Virus record (IMG/VR): IMGVR_UViG_2865859272_000007
Span: 1 to 64,000 of that record
Source: a virus
Lineage: Duplodnaviria; Caudoviricetes
Reading direction: 5' to 3' (one strand)
Length of the DNA stretch: 64,000 bases
In this document: positions 6,768 through 12,789 of the stretch, one piece after another
How positions within the stretch are numbered: position 1 is the stretch's first letter
How the letters are laid out: each line of letters opens with the position of its first letter
Notes under the pieces: model-generated
Seen by the model: only the letters and a program-made list of their open reading frames with translations
What the model was told of the DNA's origin: nothing
Databases searched by the model: none
Position numbers and translations under genes: made by a program

Positions 6768-7564
6768 CCCCTGACGATCCGGACGACTTCTACCGGGACG
6801 ACACCCCGCCGCCCCGCCGCAAGTCGGAGCCGATGGAGGGCTTCGCCGCCGAGCTCGCGGGGCGGATCCGCGAGTTGTTCTTCCAGTACACCAACCGACT
6901 AGACCGGTCCCAGCAGAAGCATCTGGGGCCTTCTGAGATCGGCACCCCCTGCGACCGGCGGCTCGCGATGTCGCTCATGGGTATGCCGGCCGTCAATCCG
7001 GGCGGCGACAACTGGGCGTCCTGGAAGGGTACCCAGATCCATCGCGGCCTGGCGGAAATGATCGACTGGGCGAACGCCAACTCCGGCCGGTACGCCACGG
7101 AGATGCGAGTCGCGCTACCCTCCGAGCGTGTGCCCGGCGGCACGCTGGACTGGCTCGACCGGACGCTGCTGATGGTCGGGGACTGGAAGCTCCTCGGATC
7201 GTCCAGCCTTTCCAAGCTCCGCCTCGACGGGCCGCCGCCCCGCTACCGGATTCAGGCCCACTGCTACGGGCTCGGGGCGACGCGGGCCGGTGAACGCATC
7301 GAGCACGTGGCGATCATCGGGATGCCCGCCGAAGCTCAGTCGCTGAACTCGCTATACGTCTGGGCGGAGCCGTACTCGGAGCAGGTGGCGCTCGACGCCC
7401 TGGCGCGAGTCGACCGGATCGCGGAGCAGATTGGCACCGTCGGGAACGGGAGGGGCGAAGCCAACAAGCGGCTCCTCGCTCTCGCTTTCCCCACGGCCGA
7501 TGACTGCAAATTCTGTAGCTGGCACACCAAGACGAAGAGCGGCTGCAACGGCCATCAGTCATAA
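6764..7564 (+). CDS. Cas4-like / PD-(D/E)XK exonuclease
   Basis: PSEIGTPCDRR, GTLD, VGDWK, QAHCYG, C-terminal CKFCSW...C. Confidence 0.8.
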   Translation: MTPDDPDDFYRDDTPPPRRKSEPMEGFAAELAGRIRELFFQYTNRLDRSQQKHLGPSEIGTPCDRRLAMSLMGMPAVNPGGDNWASWKGTQIHRGLAEMIDWANANSGRYATEMRVALPSERVPGGTLDWLDRTLLMVGDWKLLGSSSLSKLRLDGPPPRYRIQAHCYGLGATRAGERIEHVAIIGMPAEAQSLNSLYVWAEPYSEQVALDALARVDRIAEQIGTVGNGRGEANKRLLALAFPTADDCKFCSWHTKTKSGCNGHQS

Positions 7565-7595
7565 CCGAACACCCAACAGAACAGAGGAACCCCGC

Positions 7596-8309
7596 ATGGC
7601 AACCCCCAACCAGCCCGGCTACGAAGCCGATTTCATGGAGGAAGGCGGCAAGTCGTTCTCGTTCGACGGGACTCCGCCGATCTCCGTGACCGGCATTGTG
7701 TCGGTGGACAACCCGGTGAAGATGCAGCAGCGCGACTTCGATACCGGCGATCTGCTGACCTGGCCGGACGGCAATCCGAAGTGGCAGTGGCGCGTCGACC
7801 TCCAGACCGAGCTGCGTGAGGCGCCGGACGACGACGGCATGCGCTCGGTGTATCTGAAGTTCCGCTCGAAGGCCGCGGTGGTGAACGCCGTGAAGGCGGC
7901 CGGCGTCAAGCGCATGGAGCGGGGCGGGCGGCTGACCCTGACGTACACCAGCAACGATCACAGCCAGCCGCATCGTACGAAGCCCGAGTACGGCTGCGGG
8001 CCGCAGTGCCAGCAGGGCCGCGGCTACCCGGCGAAGAACTACGAAGCGAAGTACGAGCCGCCGCAGCAGGGCCTGATGGACTCCGGCCCGGATCCGTGGG
8101 CGGGGATGAACGTCAGCCCTCCTCCGGCGGCTGCCCCTCCTGCGCCCCCGTCCGCTGTGACGGCGCCTGCCCCTGCGACGGCTGCGCCTGCTGTTGACCC
8201 AGAGCTCGTCGCCTTCTTGGTGGGCAAGGGCATCGGCAACGCCGCCACGCTCGACGCGGCGACCGCGAAGCAGATAGCGGCCGTCTATCCCGACAACCCG
8301 TTCAAGTAG
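7596..8309 (+). CDS. Putative ssDNA-binding/recombination protein
   Basis: QQRDFDTG...TWPDGNPKWQ; Pro/Ala-rich tail; position after the exonuclease. Confidence 0.55.
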   Translation: MATPNQPGYEADFMEEGGKSFSFDGTPPISVTGIVSVDNPVKMQQRDFDTGDLLTWPDGNPKWQWRVDLQTELREAPDDDGMRSVYLKFRSKAAVVNAVKAAGVKRMERGGRLTLTYTSNDHSQPHRTKPEYGCGPQCQQGRGYPAKNYEAKYEPPQQGLMDSGPDPWAGMNVSPPPAAAPPAPPSAVTAPAPATAAPAVDPELVAFLVGKGIGNAATLDAATAKQIAAVYPDNPFK

Positions 8310-8546: not shown

Positions 8547-8575
8547 TTGACAGCCCCGACCGAATGGGGCATTCT
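8547..8575 (+). promoter_or_regulatory. Sigma70/HrdB-type promoter for the ncRNA array
   Basis: TTGACA-17 nt-CATTCT; implied start near 8582-8584 coincides with unit 1. Confidence 0.6.
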
Positions 8576-8583
8576 TGGACATC

Positions 8584-8663
8584 GCAACCAGTTGCGAAGG
8601 TGCCGGTTACTTCATTTTGCTGAAGATGAAACCGTACCGTTGCCGATCTTGTTCCCTGGTTGC
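8584..8663 (+). ncRNA. Y-RNA-like unit 1 (short)
   Basis: Closing stem gcaaccag/ctggttgc; gcgaagg...ggttacttc motif; helix with a single bulged C. Confidence 0.65.
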
Positions 8664-8673
8664 GCATGGCTTT

Positions 8674-8813
8674 GATGCCAGTTGCGCAGGAGACGGTTAC
8701 TTCCACTGTTAATGGAGTGGTCGCGGGTTCGAGTCCCGTCGCCAGCCCCTGGTTGGCGTAGCTCAGTTGGTAGAGCACTTACGTTACCGTCGCCGCCCTG
8801 GTTCTCTGGCATC
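8674..8813 (+). ncRNA. YrlA-like Y RNA containing a circularly permuted tRNA-Asn(GUU) module
   Basis: Closing stem gatgccag/ctggcatc; inside, anticodon arm (ctGTTaa), T arm (ttcgagt), acceptor stem closed by a ccctg loop, D arm (gctc-agttggta-gagc). Confidence 0.85.
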
Positions 8814-8826
8814 AACCTCTTCTGGT

Positions 8827-8896
8827 TCGCGCTGCGAAGGCAGCCGGGTACTTCTTTGGGTGAAATATCCCCGGCAAGCCGCACCTGTTCTCGCGA
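8827..8896 (+). ncRNA. Y-RNA-like unit 3 (short)
   Basis: Closing stem tcgcg/cgcga; gcgaagg...gggtacttc motif; gccggg/cccggc helix; ends cctgttctc. Confidence 0.6.
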
Positions 8897-8909
8897 CCCC
8901 CCTCTTCTC

Positions 8910-8936
8910 AAGGGCGCCCCCCGTCGGGCGCCCTTT
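8910..8936 (+). terminator. Intrinsic terminator after the Y RNA array
   Basis: aagggcgccc/gggcgccctt stem with a short T tail. Confidence 0.65.
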
Positions 8937-8969: not shown

Positions 8970-10523
8970 ATGTCCCGATTCAACCACCGTGGCGCCAAGG
9001 CCGCCGGACAGTCCCCGATCACAACCACCACCCAGGCCCTCACCCACGAGGGCGGCAGCGGCTACCACCGCGACGAAAAGTCCGAGCTGTTCCTCCTCGC
9101 CGTAGCAAACCTCGTCAGCCAGGACGCCTTCTACGAGACCGGCGGCGAGCGGGACAACCGATACCAGCAGCTCATCCGCCACCTCGCCGTCACCGACCCC
9201 GACTGGACCGTGTCGCTGCTGACCTGGCTCCGTAGCAGCGCCGGCATGCGCACCGCCTCCCTGATCGGAGCGGCCGAGTACGTCAAGGCGCGTCTCGACA
9301 AGGGCATCCACGGCGACAACCGGCAGATCATCGACATGGTGTGCAAGCGGCCTGACGAGCCCGGCGAACTCCTCGCCTACTGGCACTCCCGGTACGGGCG
9401 GGCCCTGCCGATGCCGGTGAAGCGCGGCCTCGCCGACGCCGTCCAGCGTCTGTACGGAGAACGATCGCTGCTGAAGTACGACACCGCGTCCCACGCCTAC
9501 CGCTTCGCCGACGTCATCGAGCTCGTCCACCCGACACCGAAGGCGCCGTGGCAGAGCGATCTGTTCCGGTACGCCATCGACCGCCGCCACAAGCGGGAGG
9601 ATCCGCCGCCCGAGTCGCTGGAGATGATCCGGCACAACGCCTGGCTCCGCGACAAGGCCGGCGAGGAGCCGGAGATCGCCCTCAATGCCACTCACCTCGC
9701 CCAGGCGGGTATGACGTGGGAGGACGCCCTGTCCGCGGTCGGCTCGAAGGTCGACAAGGCCGCCCTGTGGGAGGCCATGATCCCGTCGATGGGGTACATG
9801 GCGCTGCTGCGGAACCTGCGGAACTTCGACGAGGCCGGCGTCAGTGACACGGTCGCCGCCGGGGTCGCTGCGCGCATCGGTGACCCGGGCGAGGTGGAGC
9901 GGTCGCAGCAGTTTCCGATGCGGTTCTTGTCGGCGTACCGTGCGGCGCCTTCGCTGCGCTGGTCGTGGGCGTTGGAGAAGGCGTTGAACCTGTCGCTGGC
10001 GAATGTGCCCCGGCTTCGCGGCCGGACTCTCGTCCTGGTCGACCGGTCGGCTTCGATGTTCTGGGCGCAGTCGAAGCAGTCGCAGCTCACCTTCGCTGAC
10101 ACGGCCGCGGTGTTCGGTACTGCGGTGGCGGTGCGGGCCGAGAACGCGACGCTCGTCCAGTACGGCAGCCTCAGCGAGGAGATCACCCTGCCGCGCGGGA
10201 TATCGGTGCTGAAGGCGATCGAGCGATACAGGAACATGGGCGGCACGAACACCGTCGAGGCGGTGCGGCAGCACTTCCAGGGCCATGACCGTGTCGTCAT
10301 CGTCACCGACGAGCAGGCGTACCCCTCCTACTACGGCAGTGTCGATGACGTTCTGCCGGACAGCGTGCCGCTGTACACCTGGAACCTCGCCGGCTACCGG
10401 GTGGGGCACGGCCGTTCGGGCAGCGGGAACCGGTACACGTTCGGTGGGCTGTCGGATGCGGCGTTCCGCATGATTCCGCTGTTGGAGGCCGGGCGTAACG
10501 CCGACTGGCCGTGGGTGGGGTGA
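8970..10523 (+). CDS. rsr: Ro60-related TROVE-domain protein with C-terminal vWA (Rsr)
   Basis: HEGGSGY...ELFLL, MGYMALLRNLRN, vWA LVLVDRSASM, GGT, VIVTDEQ, WNLAGY. Confidence 0.92.
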   Translation: MSRFNHRGAKAAGQSPITTTTQALTHEGGSGYHRDEKSELFLLAVANLVSQDAFYETGGERDNRYQQLIRHLAVTDPDWTVSLLTWLRSSAGMRTASLIGAAEYVKARLDKGIHGDNRQIIDMVCKRPDEPGELLAYWHSRYGRALPMPVKRGLADAVQRLYGERSLLKYDTASHAYRFADVIELVHPTPKAPWQSDLFRYAIDRRHKREDPPPESLEMIRHNAWLRDKAGEEPEIALNATHLAQAGMTWEDALSAVGSKVDKAALWEAMIPSMGYMALLRNLRNFDEAGVSDTVAAGVAARIGDPGEVERSQQFPMRFLSAYRAAPSLRWSWALEKALNLSLANVPRLRGRTLVLVDRSASMFWAQSKQSQLTFADTAAVFGTAVAVRAENATLVQYGSLSEEITLPRGISVLKAIERYRNMGGTNTVEAVRQHFQGHDRVVIVTDEQAYPSYYGSVDDVLPDSVPLYTWNLAGYRVGHGRSGSGNRYTFGGLSDAAFRMIPLLEAGRNADWPWVG

Positions 10524-12030: not shown

Positions 12031-12789
12031 ATGGATAACACCGGCCCTCGGATCCTGTCGCTCGACATCGAAACCAGTCCGGTCGTCGCCCACGCCTGGG
12101 CCCTCTTCAAGCAGAACGTCGCGATCAACCAGATTATCGAGCACCCCCGGACGATCTGCTTCGCGGCGAAGTTCATGGATGAACGCAAGGTCCATTTCTA
12201 CAGCGAGTTCGAGCACACCCACAACGGTATGGTTCGGGCCGCTCACGCCCTGTTGGACGAGGCCGACGTCGTCATGCACTTCAACGGCGACCGCTTCGAC
12301 CTGCCTAGGCTCAACACCGAGTTCATTCTCGCCGGGCTCACCCCGCCGGCCCCGTACAAAAGCATCGACCTGTACAAGGTCATCAAGGGGAACTTCAACT
12401 TCACGTCCAACAAGCTGGCCTATGTGTCGGAGCGCCTCGGCCTAGCCGGGAAAGTGAAGCACGACGGGCACGAGCTGTGGATCAAATGCCTTGCCGGCGA
12501 CCCCAAGGCGTGGGCGCAGATGCGCCGATACAACGTCCGTGACGTACGGCTCCTGGAAGAGATCTACGACAAGGTGCGGCCTTGGATCGACAACCATCCG
12601 CACCACGGCCTGTACACCGGCCAAGGCGACGTGTGCCCCAACTGTGGTGGCGTCGACCTGGAGCGCCGCGGTTTCGCCCTTACCGGCGTAGGCCGGTTCC
12701 AACGCTACCGGTGCAGAGCCTGTGGCACGTGGTCCCGCAGCAACCGCCGGGACCACGGAGTTACCACCACACAAGCGAAAGGAAGGTGA
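12031..12789 (+). CDS. RNase H-like (DnaQ/DEDD) 3'-5' exonuclease with C-terminal zinc ribbon
   Basis: LSLDIET, FNGDRFD, SNKL, YNVRDV, CPNC...CRAC. Confidence 0.85.
   Translation: MDNTGPRILSLDIETSPVVAHAWALFKQNVAINQIIEHPRTICFAAKFMDERKVHFYSEFEHTHNGMVRAAHALLDEADVVMHFNGDRFDLPRLNTEFILAGLTPPAPYKSIDLYKVIKGNFNFTSNKLAYVSERLGLAGKVKHDGHELWIKCLAGDPKAWAQMRRYNVRDVRLLEEIYDKVRPWIDNHPHHGLYTGQGDVCPNCGGVDLERRGFALTGVGRFQRYRCRACGTWSRSNRRDHGVTTTQAKGR

What the first reader, a model, noticed from the sequence alone, without database searches (positions are those of the whole stretch)
8701..8777. Complete circularly permuted tRNA-Asn(GUU) inside the middle Y RNA, with an intact anticodon loop
Seen in sequence: the order is anticodon arm (ttcca-ctGTTaa-tggag), variable tggtc, T arm (gcggg-ttcgagt-cccgt), 3' acceptor strand cgccagc, 5-nt linker ccctg, 5' acceptor strand gttggcg, TA, D arm (gctc-agttggta-gagc). 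The break lies between the D and anticodon arms. All four arms are kept, including a canonical Asn anticodon loop. Inference: it is either a decoy for Asn-anticodon-specific nucleases or modifying enzymes, or a precursor that could be excised, ligated and re-opened into a working tRNA, as with permuted tRNA genes in some algae and archaea.
Basis: partly seen in the sequence, partly recalled or inferred. Interest (0 to 1): 0.8.

Follow-up and report, generated by a model that had tools for sequence, protein, structure and literature searches.

The report
Y RNA with complete permuted tRNA
A prophage-encoded Y RNA, the RNA partner of a Ro60-like protein, holds every arm of a tRNA in rearranged order, including an anticodon-like hairpin that the papers I could read do not describe in such RNAs; relatives keep the hairpin's shape but not its 'Asn' triplet, so it is a tRNA look-alike, not a hidden tRNA-Asn gene.

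Summary
Every arm sits at the stated coordinates, and the re-ordered sequence is called tRNA-Asn(GTT). The element is the tRNA-like module of a YrlA-class Y RNA (about 8672-8815). Rfam YrlA scores 45.4 bits, E 6e-9, below its cut-off. It lies 150 nt upstream of the genome's only rsr/TROVE gene, inside a prophage.

The new point is the anticodon-like arm. Forty-nine distinct relatives from actinomycete genomes and phage contigs keep a 7-nt loop with the frame C32-U33-N-N-U36-A37-A38. The triplet takes 18 forms, GUU being only 8 of 49.

Covariation moves the break. Positions 42-43 pair with the two bases after the D arm, and only three base pairs are local. The Ro60-binding helix therefore leaves the anticodon stem between positions 28 and 29, not 26 and 27.

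The two YrlA papers I read called this hairpin a 'variable arm' or state that YrlA lacks an anticodon loop.

Most likely it is a full tRNA mimic that is handled by tRNA enzymes. It is not an Asn-specific decoy and not a tRNA precursor. I class it as a new variant of a known kind, of moderate interest.

The parts
8547..8575 (+). Possible promoter of the Y RNA cluster (TTGACA, 17 nt, CATTCT)
   Evidence: Read by eye. The consensus scan found no site, because the second hexamer matches only 3 of 6. Weak.
8580..8668 (+). Y-RNA-like unit 1 (no tRNA module; shares the GGUUACUUC motif)
   Evidence: Folds to a closed stem, -35.4 kcal/mol, z -4.17.
8672..8815 (+). YrlA-class Y RNA, whole unit. The closing stem is 8672-8681 with 8806-8815, and an inner helix is about 8692-8700 with 8783-8791.
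   Evidence: Rfam RF02553 at 8693-8799, 45.4 bits, E 6.3e-9. MFE -63.1 kcal/mol, z -4.39. The outer stem shows compensatory changes in 28 homologs. My model R1 scores 137 bits.
8698..8702 (+). Near-invariant UACUU junction motif between the Y helix and the anticodon-like hairpin
   Evidence: Invariant or nearly so in 28 of 28 rows. Its two U's are not the covarying partners of positions 42-43.
8703..8715 (+). Local part of the anticodon-like arm: CCA (29-31), 7-nt loop CUGUUAA (32-38; 'anticodon' GUU at 8708-8710), UGG (39-41)
   Evidence: Pairs 31:39 (AU 22, UA 3, CG 2, GC 1) and 30:40 (CG 17, GC 8) covary. Loop frame C32 40/49, U33 46/49, U36 35/49, A37 33/49, A38 49/49.
8716..8717 (+). Positions 42-43 (AG), paired with 8779-8778
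   Evidence: On the MAFFT alignment, 28:42 reads GC 19, AU 6, GU 2, CG 1, and 27:43 reads GC 18, CG 5, AU 1, UA 1. On 49 homologs, 47 of 47 are Watson-Crick at both pairs.
8718..8722 (+). Class-I type variable loop (44-48), with G46 and C48
   Evidence: G46 is invariant in 28 of 28. The 15:48 Levitt pair covaries: GC 18, AU 9, UA 1.
8723..8739 (+). T arm (GCGGG, UUCGAGU, CCCGU)
   Evidence: T54, T55, C56, A58 and C61 are invariant. The stem covaries.
8740..8758 (+). Closed acceptor stem: 3' strand 8740-8746, linker CCCUG 8747-8751, 5' strand 8752-8758
   Evidence: 7 bp here. Among 45 YrlA homologs analysed, most keep all 7 pairs (whose table also holds 3 tandem-tRNA rows with 1-3 pairs). The stem covaries heavily. 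The linker starts C-C-C, so it encodes a base 73 plus CC.
8759..8777 (+). U8-A9, D arm (GCUC, AGUUGGUA, GAGC) and purine 26
   Evidence: U8, A9, A14, A21 and the D stem are invariant. N26 is A 17, G 11.
8778..8779 (+). Positions 27-28 (CU), which complete the anticodon stem by long-range pairing
8822..8900 (+). Y-RNA-like unit 3 (short; shares GGGUACUUC)
   Evidence: Sequence motif. The fold is not better than shuffles, z -0.14. Weak.
8910..8935 (+). G+C-rich 10-bp hairpin followed by UUUCUG; probable terminator or processing hairpin before rsr
   Evidence: -21.2 kcal/mol, z -3.42. The consensus scan does not call it, for lack of a T run.
8970..10523 (+). rsr (Ro60-like TROVE + vWA protein, 517 aa)
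   Evidence: Pfam TROVE 2.8e-18. PHROG 850 'RNA-binding protein' 3.2e-53. It is the only TROVE gene in the genome.

Best explanation
The element is the tRNA-like effector module of a YrlA-class bacterial Y RNA. It is carried, with its Rsr (Ro60) partner, by a Streptomyces-type prophage. The 5' and 3' ends of the RNA form the Rsr-binding helix. The middle folds into a full tRNA L-shape in permuted order: T arm, closed 7-bp acceptor stem, D arm, class-I variable loop and an anticodon-like arm. The anticodon-like arm is not described for the characterised Salmonella YrlA. It is composite. Three base pairs and the 7-nt loop are local, and the top two base pairs (27:43, 28:42) use the two bases that follow the D arm. 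The Rsr-binding helix therefore branches from the 5' strand of the anticodon stem between positions 28 and 29. Selection keeps the frame of the loop (C32, U33, U36-A37-A38) but not positions 34-35, so GUU is incidental. Inferred mechanism: the RNA is handled as a tRNA by host enzymes that read shape and loop frame. These would include TruB and Dus enzymes, as shown for Salmonella YrlA, and RNase P plus the CCA-adding enzyme, as shown for M. smegmatis YrlA. The 36-UAA-38 motif suggests the t6A37 synthase TsaBD as well. In this way the RNA would tether or present a tRNA-binding partner to phage Rsr. It does not decode and is not a tRNA-Asn precursor. Shown here: anatomy, conservation, covariation and genomic context. 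Inferred: transcription, Rsr binding, processing, modification and the effector.
For: Identity: Rfam YrlA is the best hit, and the element lies 150 nt upstream of the only TROVE gene. The prophage context rests on terminase, portal, head, tape-measure and primase genes in the window. Relatives sit upstream of rsr in 41 actinomycete genome loci and 24 IMG/VR phage contigs.

Anticodon-like arm: RNAalifold predicts it without guidance. The composite 5-bp stem is 96.4% paired, 4 of 5 pairs have compensatory changes, and the covariation score is 0.616 against at most 0.097 for slid controls. Positions 42-43 pair by Watson-Crick rules with the post-D bases in 47 of 47 homologs. With the invariant UU they would be mostly G-U, and unpaired whenever 42 or 43 is C.

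Loop: 49 distinct YrlAs have a 7-nt loop. A38 is 49/49, U33 46/49, C32 40/49, and 36-38 reads UAA in 30 of 49, against 19 of 78 host tRNAs. Positions 34-35 differ between close relatives at 0.27-0.54, similar to the acceptor linker at 0.37. Positions 32, 33, 36 and 38 differ at 0-0.07.

The five bases after position 43 form a canonical variable loop, with invariant G46 and a covarying 15:48 Levitt pair.

Literature: YrlA T and D arms are modified by TruB and DusA, and M. smegmatis YrlA with a 7-bp acceptor stem is cut by RNase P and receives CCA (PMC4201824). Bacterial t6A synthase strictly requires 36-UAA-38 and tolerates any base at 34-35 (PMC13276492).
Against: There are no expression, Rsr-binding, cleavage or modification data for this RNA or for any Streptomyces phage YrlA. 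The Rfam score is below the family cut-off (45.4 against 69). The promoter and terminator are not called by the consensus scans. Coaxial stacking of the hairpin under the 2-bp long-range helix is inferred only from the unbroken 39-43 strand; no 3D or probing data exist. The single-sequence MFE fold of this copy prefers a shifted hairpin, CCACU with AGUGG. Homologs are phylogenetically related, so shuffle-based significance is overstated. The t6A idea rests on a motif match alone, and 19 of 49 loops lack UAA (9 have GGA, 5 have UCA).
Confidence: 0.75

Rival explanations
1. The hairpin is a variable-arm-like or accessory branch, the 'V' stem-loop of Chen et al. 2014. On this reading the Rsr-binding helix itself plays the anticodon stem, as in the Salmonella YrlA crystal structure, and the resemblance to an anticodon loop is superficial.
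For: [quoted passage not shown] In the Salmonella structure the anticodon stem continues into the Rsr-binding stem with a UA kink (10.1101/312249). The UA of the conserved UACUU motif is present here. No 3D data exist for the actinomycete form.
Against: Topology argues against it. The hairpin lies 5' of the two bases (42-43) that pair with 27-28, whereas a variable arm must lie 3' of them. A normal 5-nt variable loop with G46 and Y48 follows position 43. The stem plus the two long-range pairs gives exactly 5 bp with an unbroken 3' strand. The loop is 7 nt with U33 and A38 nearly invariant, which a variable-arm loop does not need.
Confidence: 0.12
2. It is a decoy or sensor for nucleases that cut tRNA anticodon loops in phage-host conflict. 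Either it is specific for tRNA-Asn, or each phage's triplet is tuned to the nucleases of its host.
For: The RNA is phage-borne. Phage contigs carry arrays of several YrlA-like units with different triplets. Ro-like genes in cultured Streptomyces and Gordonia phages lie beside or inside tRNA arrays. The loop frame is conserved while the triplet varies.
Against: Positions 34-35 vary at about the rate of the presumably neutral acceptor linker, not faster, so there is no sign of diversifying selection. GUU is only 8 of 49. No anticodon nuclease or tRNA repair gene was seen next to rsr here, and the host RtcB is unlinked. No experiment exists.
Confidence: 0.1
3. It is a true circularly permuted tRNA-Asn gene whose transcript is circularised and re-opened at the acceptor stem to give a decoding tRNA.
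For: All arms are present and the re-ordered sequence is called tRNA-Asn. The acceptor stem is 7 bp and is followed by C-C-C. RNase P opening and CCA addition are documented for M. smegmatis YrlA (PMC4201824).
Against: The triplet is not conserved among orthologous RNAs. The break lies inside the anticodon stem, with a long helix attached. Base 73 is C, against G in both host tRNA-Asn genes, which already exist. No bacterial tRNA splicing endonuclease is known (10.1101/312249). The family is linked to rsr, not to translation genes.
Confidence: 0.02
4. The anticodon-like hairpin is an unselected relic of the tandem-tRNA ancestor of YrlA.
For: The host's own tandem tRNA-Asn genes (4-nt spacer) match Rfam YrlA at 40.7 bits and the core of my model at 59.7 bits. 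This fits the dimeric-tRNA origin model of Sim and Wolin cited in 10.1101/312249.
Against: The hairpin is kept across several actinomycete orders and their phages with compensatory changes. Positions 32, 33, 36 and 38 are far more conserved than 34-35. A relic would decay uniformly.
Confidence: 0.05

Closest known systems
YrlA (Y RNA-like A; Rfam RF02553) of Salmonella Typhimurium and Mycobacterium smegmatis
   Same: It is encoded next to rsr, and its ends form the Rsr-binding helix. The T arm lies 5' of the D arm with a closed acceptor stem between them. The same invariant D- and T-arm bases and the covarying Levitt pair are present. It has the 7-bp acceptor stem of M. smegmatis YrlA, which RNase P cleaves.
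   Different: Salmonella YrlA is stated to lack an anticodon loop. Its anticodon stem is formed by the two strands leading to the Rsr site (10.1101/312249). Here a 3-bp hairpin with a tRNA-type 7-nt loop is inserted, and only two long-range pairs remain. The Rfam model scores it below its cut-off. Chen et al. saw a 'V' stem-loop in many YrlAs but assigned it to the variable arm.
Circularly permuted tRNA genes of Cyanidioschyzon merolae and other algae, and of one archaeon
   Same: The 3' half precedes the 5' half and the acceptor stem is first a closed loop. The resemblance to YrlA is already noted in 10.1101/312249.
   Different: Those are matured by the splicing endonuclease and a ligase into decoding tRNAs with conserved anticodons. 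Here there is no such enzyme, the triplet varies, the break is inside the anticodon stem, and the ends are used to bind Rsr.
Tandem (dimeric) tRNA transcripts
   Same: The stretch from the anticodon arm of tRNA 1 to the D arm of tRNA 2 is colinear with the YrlA core. The host tandem tRNA-Asn pair scores 59.7 bits on the core of my model.
   Different: In dimers the spacer is cut and both tRNAs are released. Here the two acceptor strands pair with each other, and the flanks form a Y RNA helix.
Split tRNAs of Nanoarchaeum equitans (from my own knowledge)
   Same: If RNase P opens the acceptor loop, as in M. smegmatis, the product would be two RNA pieces held together by an extra helix next to the anticodon arm.
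   Different: In the Nanoarchaeum split tRNAs that I recall, the two transcripts are joined by splicing after position 37. No joining is expected here, and the extra helix binds a protein.
Other tRNA mimics (tmRNA, TYMV tRNA-like structure)
   Same: An L-shaped mimic recognised by tRNA enzymes.
   Different: Those have a free CCA end and act in translation or replication. This one is tethered to Ro60 and has no encoded free 3' end.

Membership tests
YrlA-class bacterial Y RNA | Encoded next to an rsr (Ro60/TROVE) gene | tested here: met
   It ends about 155 nt upstream of the TROVE+vWA gene at 8970-10523. This is the only TROVE gene in the genome.
YrlA-class bacterial Y RNA | 5' and 3' ends pair into a helix that carries the conserved 5'-strand motif for Rsr | tested here: met
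   The closing stem has compensatory changes in 28 homologs, and the 5' GGUGCG(C/A)AGG block is conserved. Rsr binding itself was not tested.
YrlA-class bacterial Y RNA | T arm, then closed acceptor stem-loop, then D arm, with tRNA tertiary-contact bases | tested here: met
   U8, A9, A14, A21, G46, T54, T55, C56 and A58 are invariant, and 15:48 covaries.
YrlA-class bacterial Y RNA | Reaches the Rfam RF02553 gathering score | tested here: not met
   45.4 bits against 69 (E 6.3e-9). The mismatch lies in the second stem of the model, where this RNA has the hairpin. This is a curated cut-off, not a biological feature.
YrlA-class bacterial Y RNA | Bound by Rsr and modified or processed by tRNA enzymes in vivo | not testable with these tools
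   Needs co-immunoprecipitation, end mapping and modification mapping.
Genuine tRNA gene | Contiguous cloverleaf detected in native order | tested here: not met
   ARAGORN and Rfam at the gathering score find only the tRNAs at 781 and 39349. The Rfam tRNA model gives 23.1 bits against 29 for a partial match.
Genuine tRNA gene | Anticodon conserved among orthologs | tested here: not met
   18 triplets in 49 homologs.
Circularly permuted tRNA gene (matured to a tRNA) | 3' half upstream of 5' half, joined through a closed acceptor stem | tested here: met
Circularly permuted tRNA gene (matured to a tRNA) | Ends form a splicing-endonuclease substrate and are ligated to a contiguous tRNA | not tested
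   I made no search for a bulge-helix-bulge motif. No bacterial splicing endonuclease is reported (10.1101/312249). Detecting a ligated product needs RT-PCR.
Class II tRNA variable arm (reading of the hairpin as 'V') | Hairpin lies between the 3' strand of the anticodon stem and the T stem | tested here: not met
   The hairpin lies 5' of the covarying 42-43 bases. A 5-nt class-I variable loop follows them.
Substrate of bacterial t6A37 synthase (TsaBD) | 36-UAA-38 in a 7-nt anticodon loop, any base at 34-35 | tested here: met
   The window loop is C-U-G-U-U-A-A. UAA is present in 30 of 49 homologs. The requirement is taken from PMC13276492. Actual modification was not tested.

The most novel reading that the evidence does not exclude
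In actinomycetes and their phages this YrlA subclass may be opened by RNase P and completed to CCA. It would then be a two-piece but complete tRNA, with a t6A-type anticodon loop and a free acceptor end, held together by the helix that carries Ro60. In that form it could act as a phage-supplied decoy, sensor or delivery vehicle for machinery that reads anticodon loops: defence anticodon nucleases, repair ligases, modification enzymes or even the ribosome. The freely drifting triplet would set which partners it meets.
Probability: 0.12. Interest if true: 0.85.

Novelty: new variant of a known kind. Interest (0 to 1): 0.5.

Why it matters
[quoted passage not shown] The two primary papers treat the module as a tRNA without an anticodon loop. 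A widespread actinomycete and phage subclass that keeps a complete anticodon-like arm changes the candidate list. Its frame matches the t6A37 determinant, and the Ro60-binding helix is grafted into the anticodon stem at 28/29. Partners could then include enzymes that read the anticodon loop, not only the elbow. The mimicry becomes testable in tractable systems such as Streptomyces lividans phages and M. smegmatis. It also explains a recurring annotation error: tRNA finders call the 5' part of these RNAs tRNA-Thr, tRNA-Asp or tRNA-Ser in phage records. Finally, it gives concrete support to the tandem-tRNA origin model.

Tried and rejected
- Native-order tRNA detection by ARAGORN and by Rfam at the gathering score found nothing at the site.
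- I meant the re-ordering test with ARAGORN to be decisive. A shuffle control showed it is not: 36 of 44 sequences are still called tRNA with the anticodon arm shuffled, and 13 of 42 YrlA-like units without the hairpin are also called. I therefore relied on covariation.
It is 93.5% paired, but its top two pairs are invariant U against a purine and fail whenever 42 or 43 is C. I replaced it with the composite stem.
- The 4-bp long-range stem of the Rfam alignment was tested. Only its two middle pairs hold; the outer two are unpaired in 11 and 21 of 28 rows.
- Recent derivation from the host tRNA-Asn was rejected. The stems differ throughout, and only universally conserved bases match.
- Faster-than-neutral change at positions 34-35 was not seen.
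- Consensus scans for promoter and terminator found nothing.
- A nucleotide search of cultured phages found only tRNA-like 80-nt matches, and no close relative of the whole cluster.
- Literature searches for an anticodon arm in YrlA found none in the held library. The Sim and Wolin 2018 review and the supplements of Chen 2014 are not held, so prior mention there cannot be excluded.
- I looked for an RNA ligase beside rsr. The host RtcB is on another contig.

Full report
WHAT IS THERE. In order it holds a 5-bp/7-nt hairpin with loop CTGTTAA, five bases TGGTC, a T arm, the acceptor 3' strand, a 5-nt linker CCCTG, the acceptor 5' strand, TA, a D arm and an A. Re-ordered in silico, ARAGORN calls it a 73-nt tRNA-Asn(gtt). 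In native order no tRNA is called here.

WHAT IT BELONGS TO. The best Rfam match over 8693-8799 is YrlA (RF02553), the tRNA-like bacterial Y RNA, at 45.4 bits and E 6.3e-9. That is below the family's gathering score of 69.
- The unit (about 8672-8815) folds with a 10-bp closing stem, MFE -63.1 kcal/mol, z -4.39.
- It is the middle of three Y-RNA-like units and is followed by a G+C-rich hairpin.
- Next comes a 517-aa TROVE+vWA gene at 8970-10523.
- That gene is the only TROVE gene in the 7-Mb, 240-contig genome.
- The window is a prophage, with large terminase, portal, major head, tape-measure, primase and polymerase-exonuclease genes.
- The closest Rsr relatives are in Streptomyces, at 71% identity.

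KNOWN BACKGROUND.
- Chen et al. 2014 (PMC4201824) showed that YrlA RNAs have T and D arms and a closed acceptor stem.
- They showed that TruB and DusA modify Salmonella YrlA.
- They showed that M. smegmatis YrlA, with a 7-bp acceptor stem, is cut by RNase P and gains CCA.
- Wang et al. 2018 (10.1101/312249) solved the Salmonella module and stated that YrlA lacks the anticodon loop.
- They also noted the likeness to circularly permuted tRNAs and cited a tandem-tRNA origin model.
So a permuted tRNA inside a Y RNA is known. A complete anticodon arm is not described in the papers I could read.

THE ANTICODON-LIKE ARM IS CONSERVED. I fetched 41 genome loci and 24 IMG/VR phage contigs through the Rsr protein. 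A MAFFT alignment of 28 upstream RNAs (A1) gave an RNAalifold consensus that contains the hairpin without any guidance. A covariance model built from it (R1) found 154 matches. Among these, 49 distinct YrlAs (27 from genomes, 21 viral, plus the window) have a fully paired 3-bp local stem and a 7-nt loop behind the UACUU motif.
- Loop composition: C32 40/49, U33 46/49, position 34 mixed, position 35 mixed, U36 35/49 (G36 10), A37 33/49 (G37 10, C37 6), A38 49/49.
- The triplet takes 18 forms: GUU 8, GCU 6, UCG 5, CUU 4, CAU 4, AUU 4 and others.
- Positions 36-38 read UAA in 30 and GGA in 9. In the host's own tRNAs UAA is 19 of 78, and the common 36-37 classes are CA, UA, GG and AA.
- Between close relatives (80% to under 100% identity, 41 non-independent pairs), positions 34, 35 and 37 differ at 0.27, 0.54 and 0.34. 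That is close to the acceptor linker at 0.37. Positions 32, 33, 36 and 38 differ at 0-0.07.
The frame of the loop is therefore under constraint and the 'anticodon' is not.

WHERE THE BREAK IS. I tested three readings on the MAFFT alignment, which was made without reference to any structure.
Its two top pairs are an invariant U against a purine and fail when the partner is C.
- The two bases before the variable loop (tRNA positions 42-43) covary with the two bases that follow purine 26 after the D arm. One pair reads GC 19, AU 6, GU 2, CG 1 (28 of 28 paired). The other reads GC 18, CG 5, AU 1, UA 1.
- On the 49-sequence set both pairs are Watson-Crick in 47 of 47. That alignment is fitted to the model, so it leans towards this structure.
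- The composite arm, three local plus two long-range pairs, is 96.4% paired. Four of its five pairs show compensatory changes. Its covariation score is 0.616, with 0 of 500 shuffles and no slid control above 0.097.
The chain therefore leaves the anticodon stem after position 28, forms the Rsr-binding helix with the 5' end, and re-enters through UACUU at position 29. The 3' strand, positions 39-43, is unbroken. From this I infer that the hairpin stacks under the two long-range pairs as a real anticodon arm.

The five bases after position 43 behave as a class-I variable loop. G46 is invariant, and the 15:48 Levitt pair covaries (GC 18, AU 9, UA 1). This topology excludes the variable-arm reading, because a variable arm must lie 3' of positions 42-43.

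OTHER tRNA FEATURES.
- The acceptor stem is 7 bp here and in most of the 45 YrlA homologs analysed. The table also holds 3 partial tandem-tRNA rows, which account for the counts of 1-3 pairs.
- Linkers are mostly 4-7 nt. Some are closed tetraloops (for example G-GAAA-C), while others encode N-CCA (5 cases).
- The window encodes C-C-C-U-G, so only an A would have to be added after trimming.
- The base in the discriminator position is C. The host's two true tRNA-Asn genes have G.

ORIGIN. Those two host genes are tandem, with a 4-nt spacer. Their junction matches Rfam YrlA at 40.7 bits and the core of R1 (positions 28-105) at 59.7 bits. This illustrates the tandem-tRNA origin model, but the stems differ, so this YrlA does not derive recently from them. 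In 151 sampled Actinomycetota genomes, about nine (including G000) have full-length R1 matches. This tally includes one unpublished genome, G048; none of its sequence is used here.

HOW IT MOST LIKELY WORKS. This paragraph is inference. The RNA is a complete tRNA mimic tethered to phage Rsr. Enzymes that read tRNA shape and loop frame should accept it. [quoted passage not shown] The window loop and 30 of 49 homologs carry 36-UAA-38. Bacterial TsaBD strictly requires this motif while ignoring positions 34-35 (PMC13276492), which is the same pattern of constraint seen here. So t6A37 at A8711 is a specific, testable prediction. The GGA class fits the G36-G37 determinant of TrmD (from my own knowledge). 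What the mimic recruits to Rsr is not known. An Asn-specific decoy and a tRNA-Asn precursor are both disfavoured. A general decoy or sensor role for anticodon-loop nucleases in phage-host conflict is not excluded.

LIMITS.
- There is no expression or biochemical evidence.
- Homologs are related, so the statistics are descriptive.
- ARAGORN is a lenient judge.
- The single-sequence MFE shifts the hairpin by two bases.
- The Sim and Wolin 2018 review and the supplements of Chen 2014 were not available, so a prior mention of anticodon-like hairpins cannot be ruled out.

VERDICT. This is a new structural variant of the known YrlA family rather than a new kind of element.

Noticed in passing
L099:2475-2553 (Mycobacterium prophage prophiGD43A-5); L098:2483-2554 (Mycobacterium phage Myrna); L120:2774-2847 (Streptomyces phage Alone3): Public phage records annotate 'tRNA-Thr(tgt)', 'tRNA-Asp' and 'tRNA-Ser(gct)' where my YrlA model finds full-length Y RNAs (73, 82 and 55 bits). 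The anticodon-like hairpin plus T arm seems to mislead tRNA finders. In two of the three records a Ro-like gene follows.
   Followed up: partly
G000:C161:14008-14159 (outside the window): The host's two tRNA-Asn(GTT) genes are tandem with a 4-nt spacer. Their junction scores 40.7 bits on Rfam YrlA and 59.7 bits on the core of my model, a living example of the proposed tandem-tRNA ancestor.
   Followed up: partly
L074, L076, L079, L084, L086 (IMG/VR phage contigs), upstream of rsr: Phage contigs carry arrays of three to six YrlA-like units. Several units have tRNA-type 7-nt loops with different triplets within one phage.
   Followed up: no
L041:2287-2432, L038:2326-2464 and similar second YrlA units in Streptomyces loci: A second YrlA type lacks the 7-nt loop. 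It has two identical 4-nt copies, one local and one after the D arm, both complementary to the strand before the variable loop. This looks like an alternative pairing or a relic of two anticodon-stem 5' strands.
   Followed up: no
window 8698-8702, 8608-8612, 8849-8853: All three Y-RNA-like units of the window share (G)GUUACUUC or GGGUACUUC. UACUU is invariant in 28 homologs and sits at the junction with the tRNA module. It may correspond to the kink-forming UA of Salmonella YrlA.
   Followed up: partly
L046:2232-2463; L121:2689-2891 (Gordonia phage Rabbitrun): Two YrlAs carry large insertions (about 90 and 68 nt) in the acceptor-stem loop. In Rabbitrun the RNA overlaps two small annotated 'hypothetical protein' CDSs.
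   Followed up: no
window 12031-12789: An RNase_H_2 / DNA polymerase exonuclease-subunit gene (PHROG 403, 8.7e-91) lies 1.5 kb downstream of rsr. A PHROG 1911 gene of unknown function lies just upstream (7431-8309).
   Followed up: no
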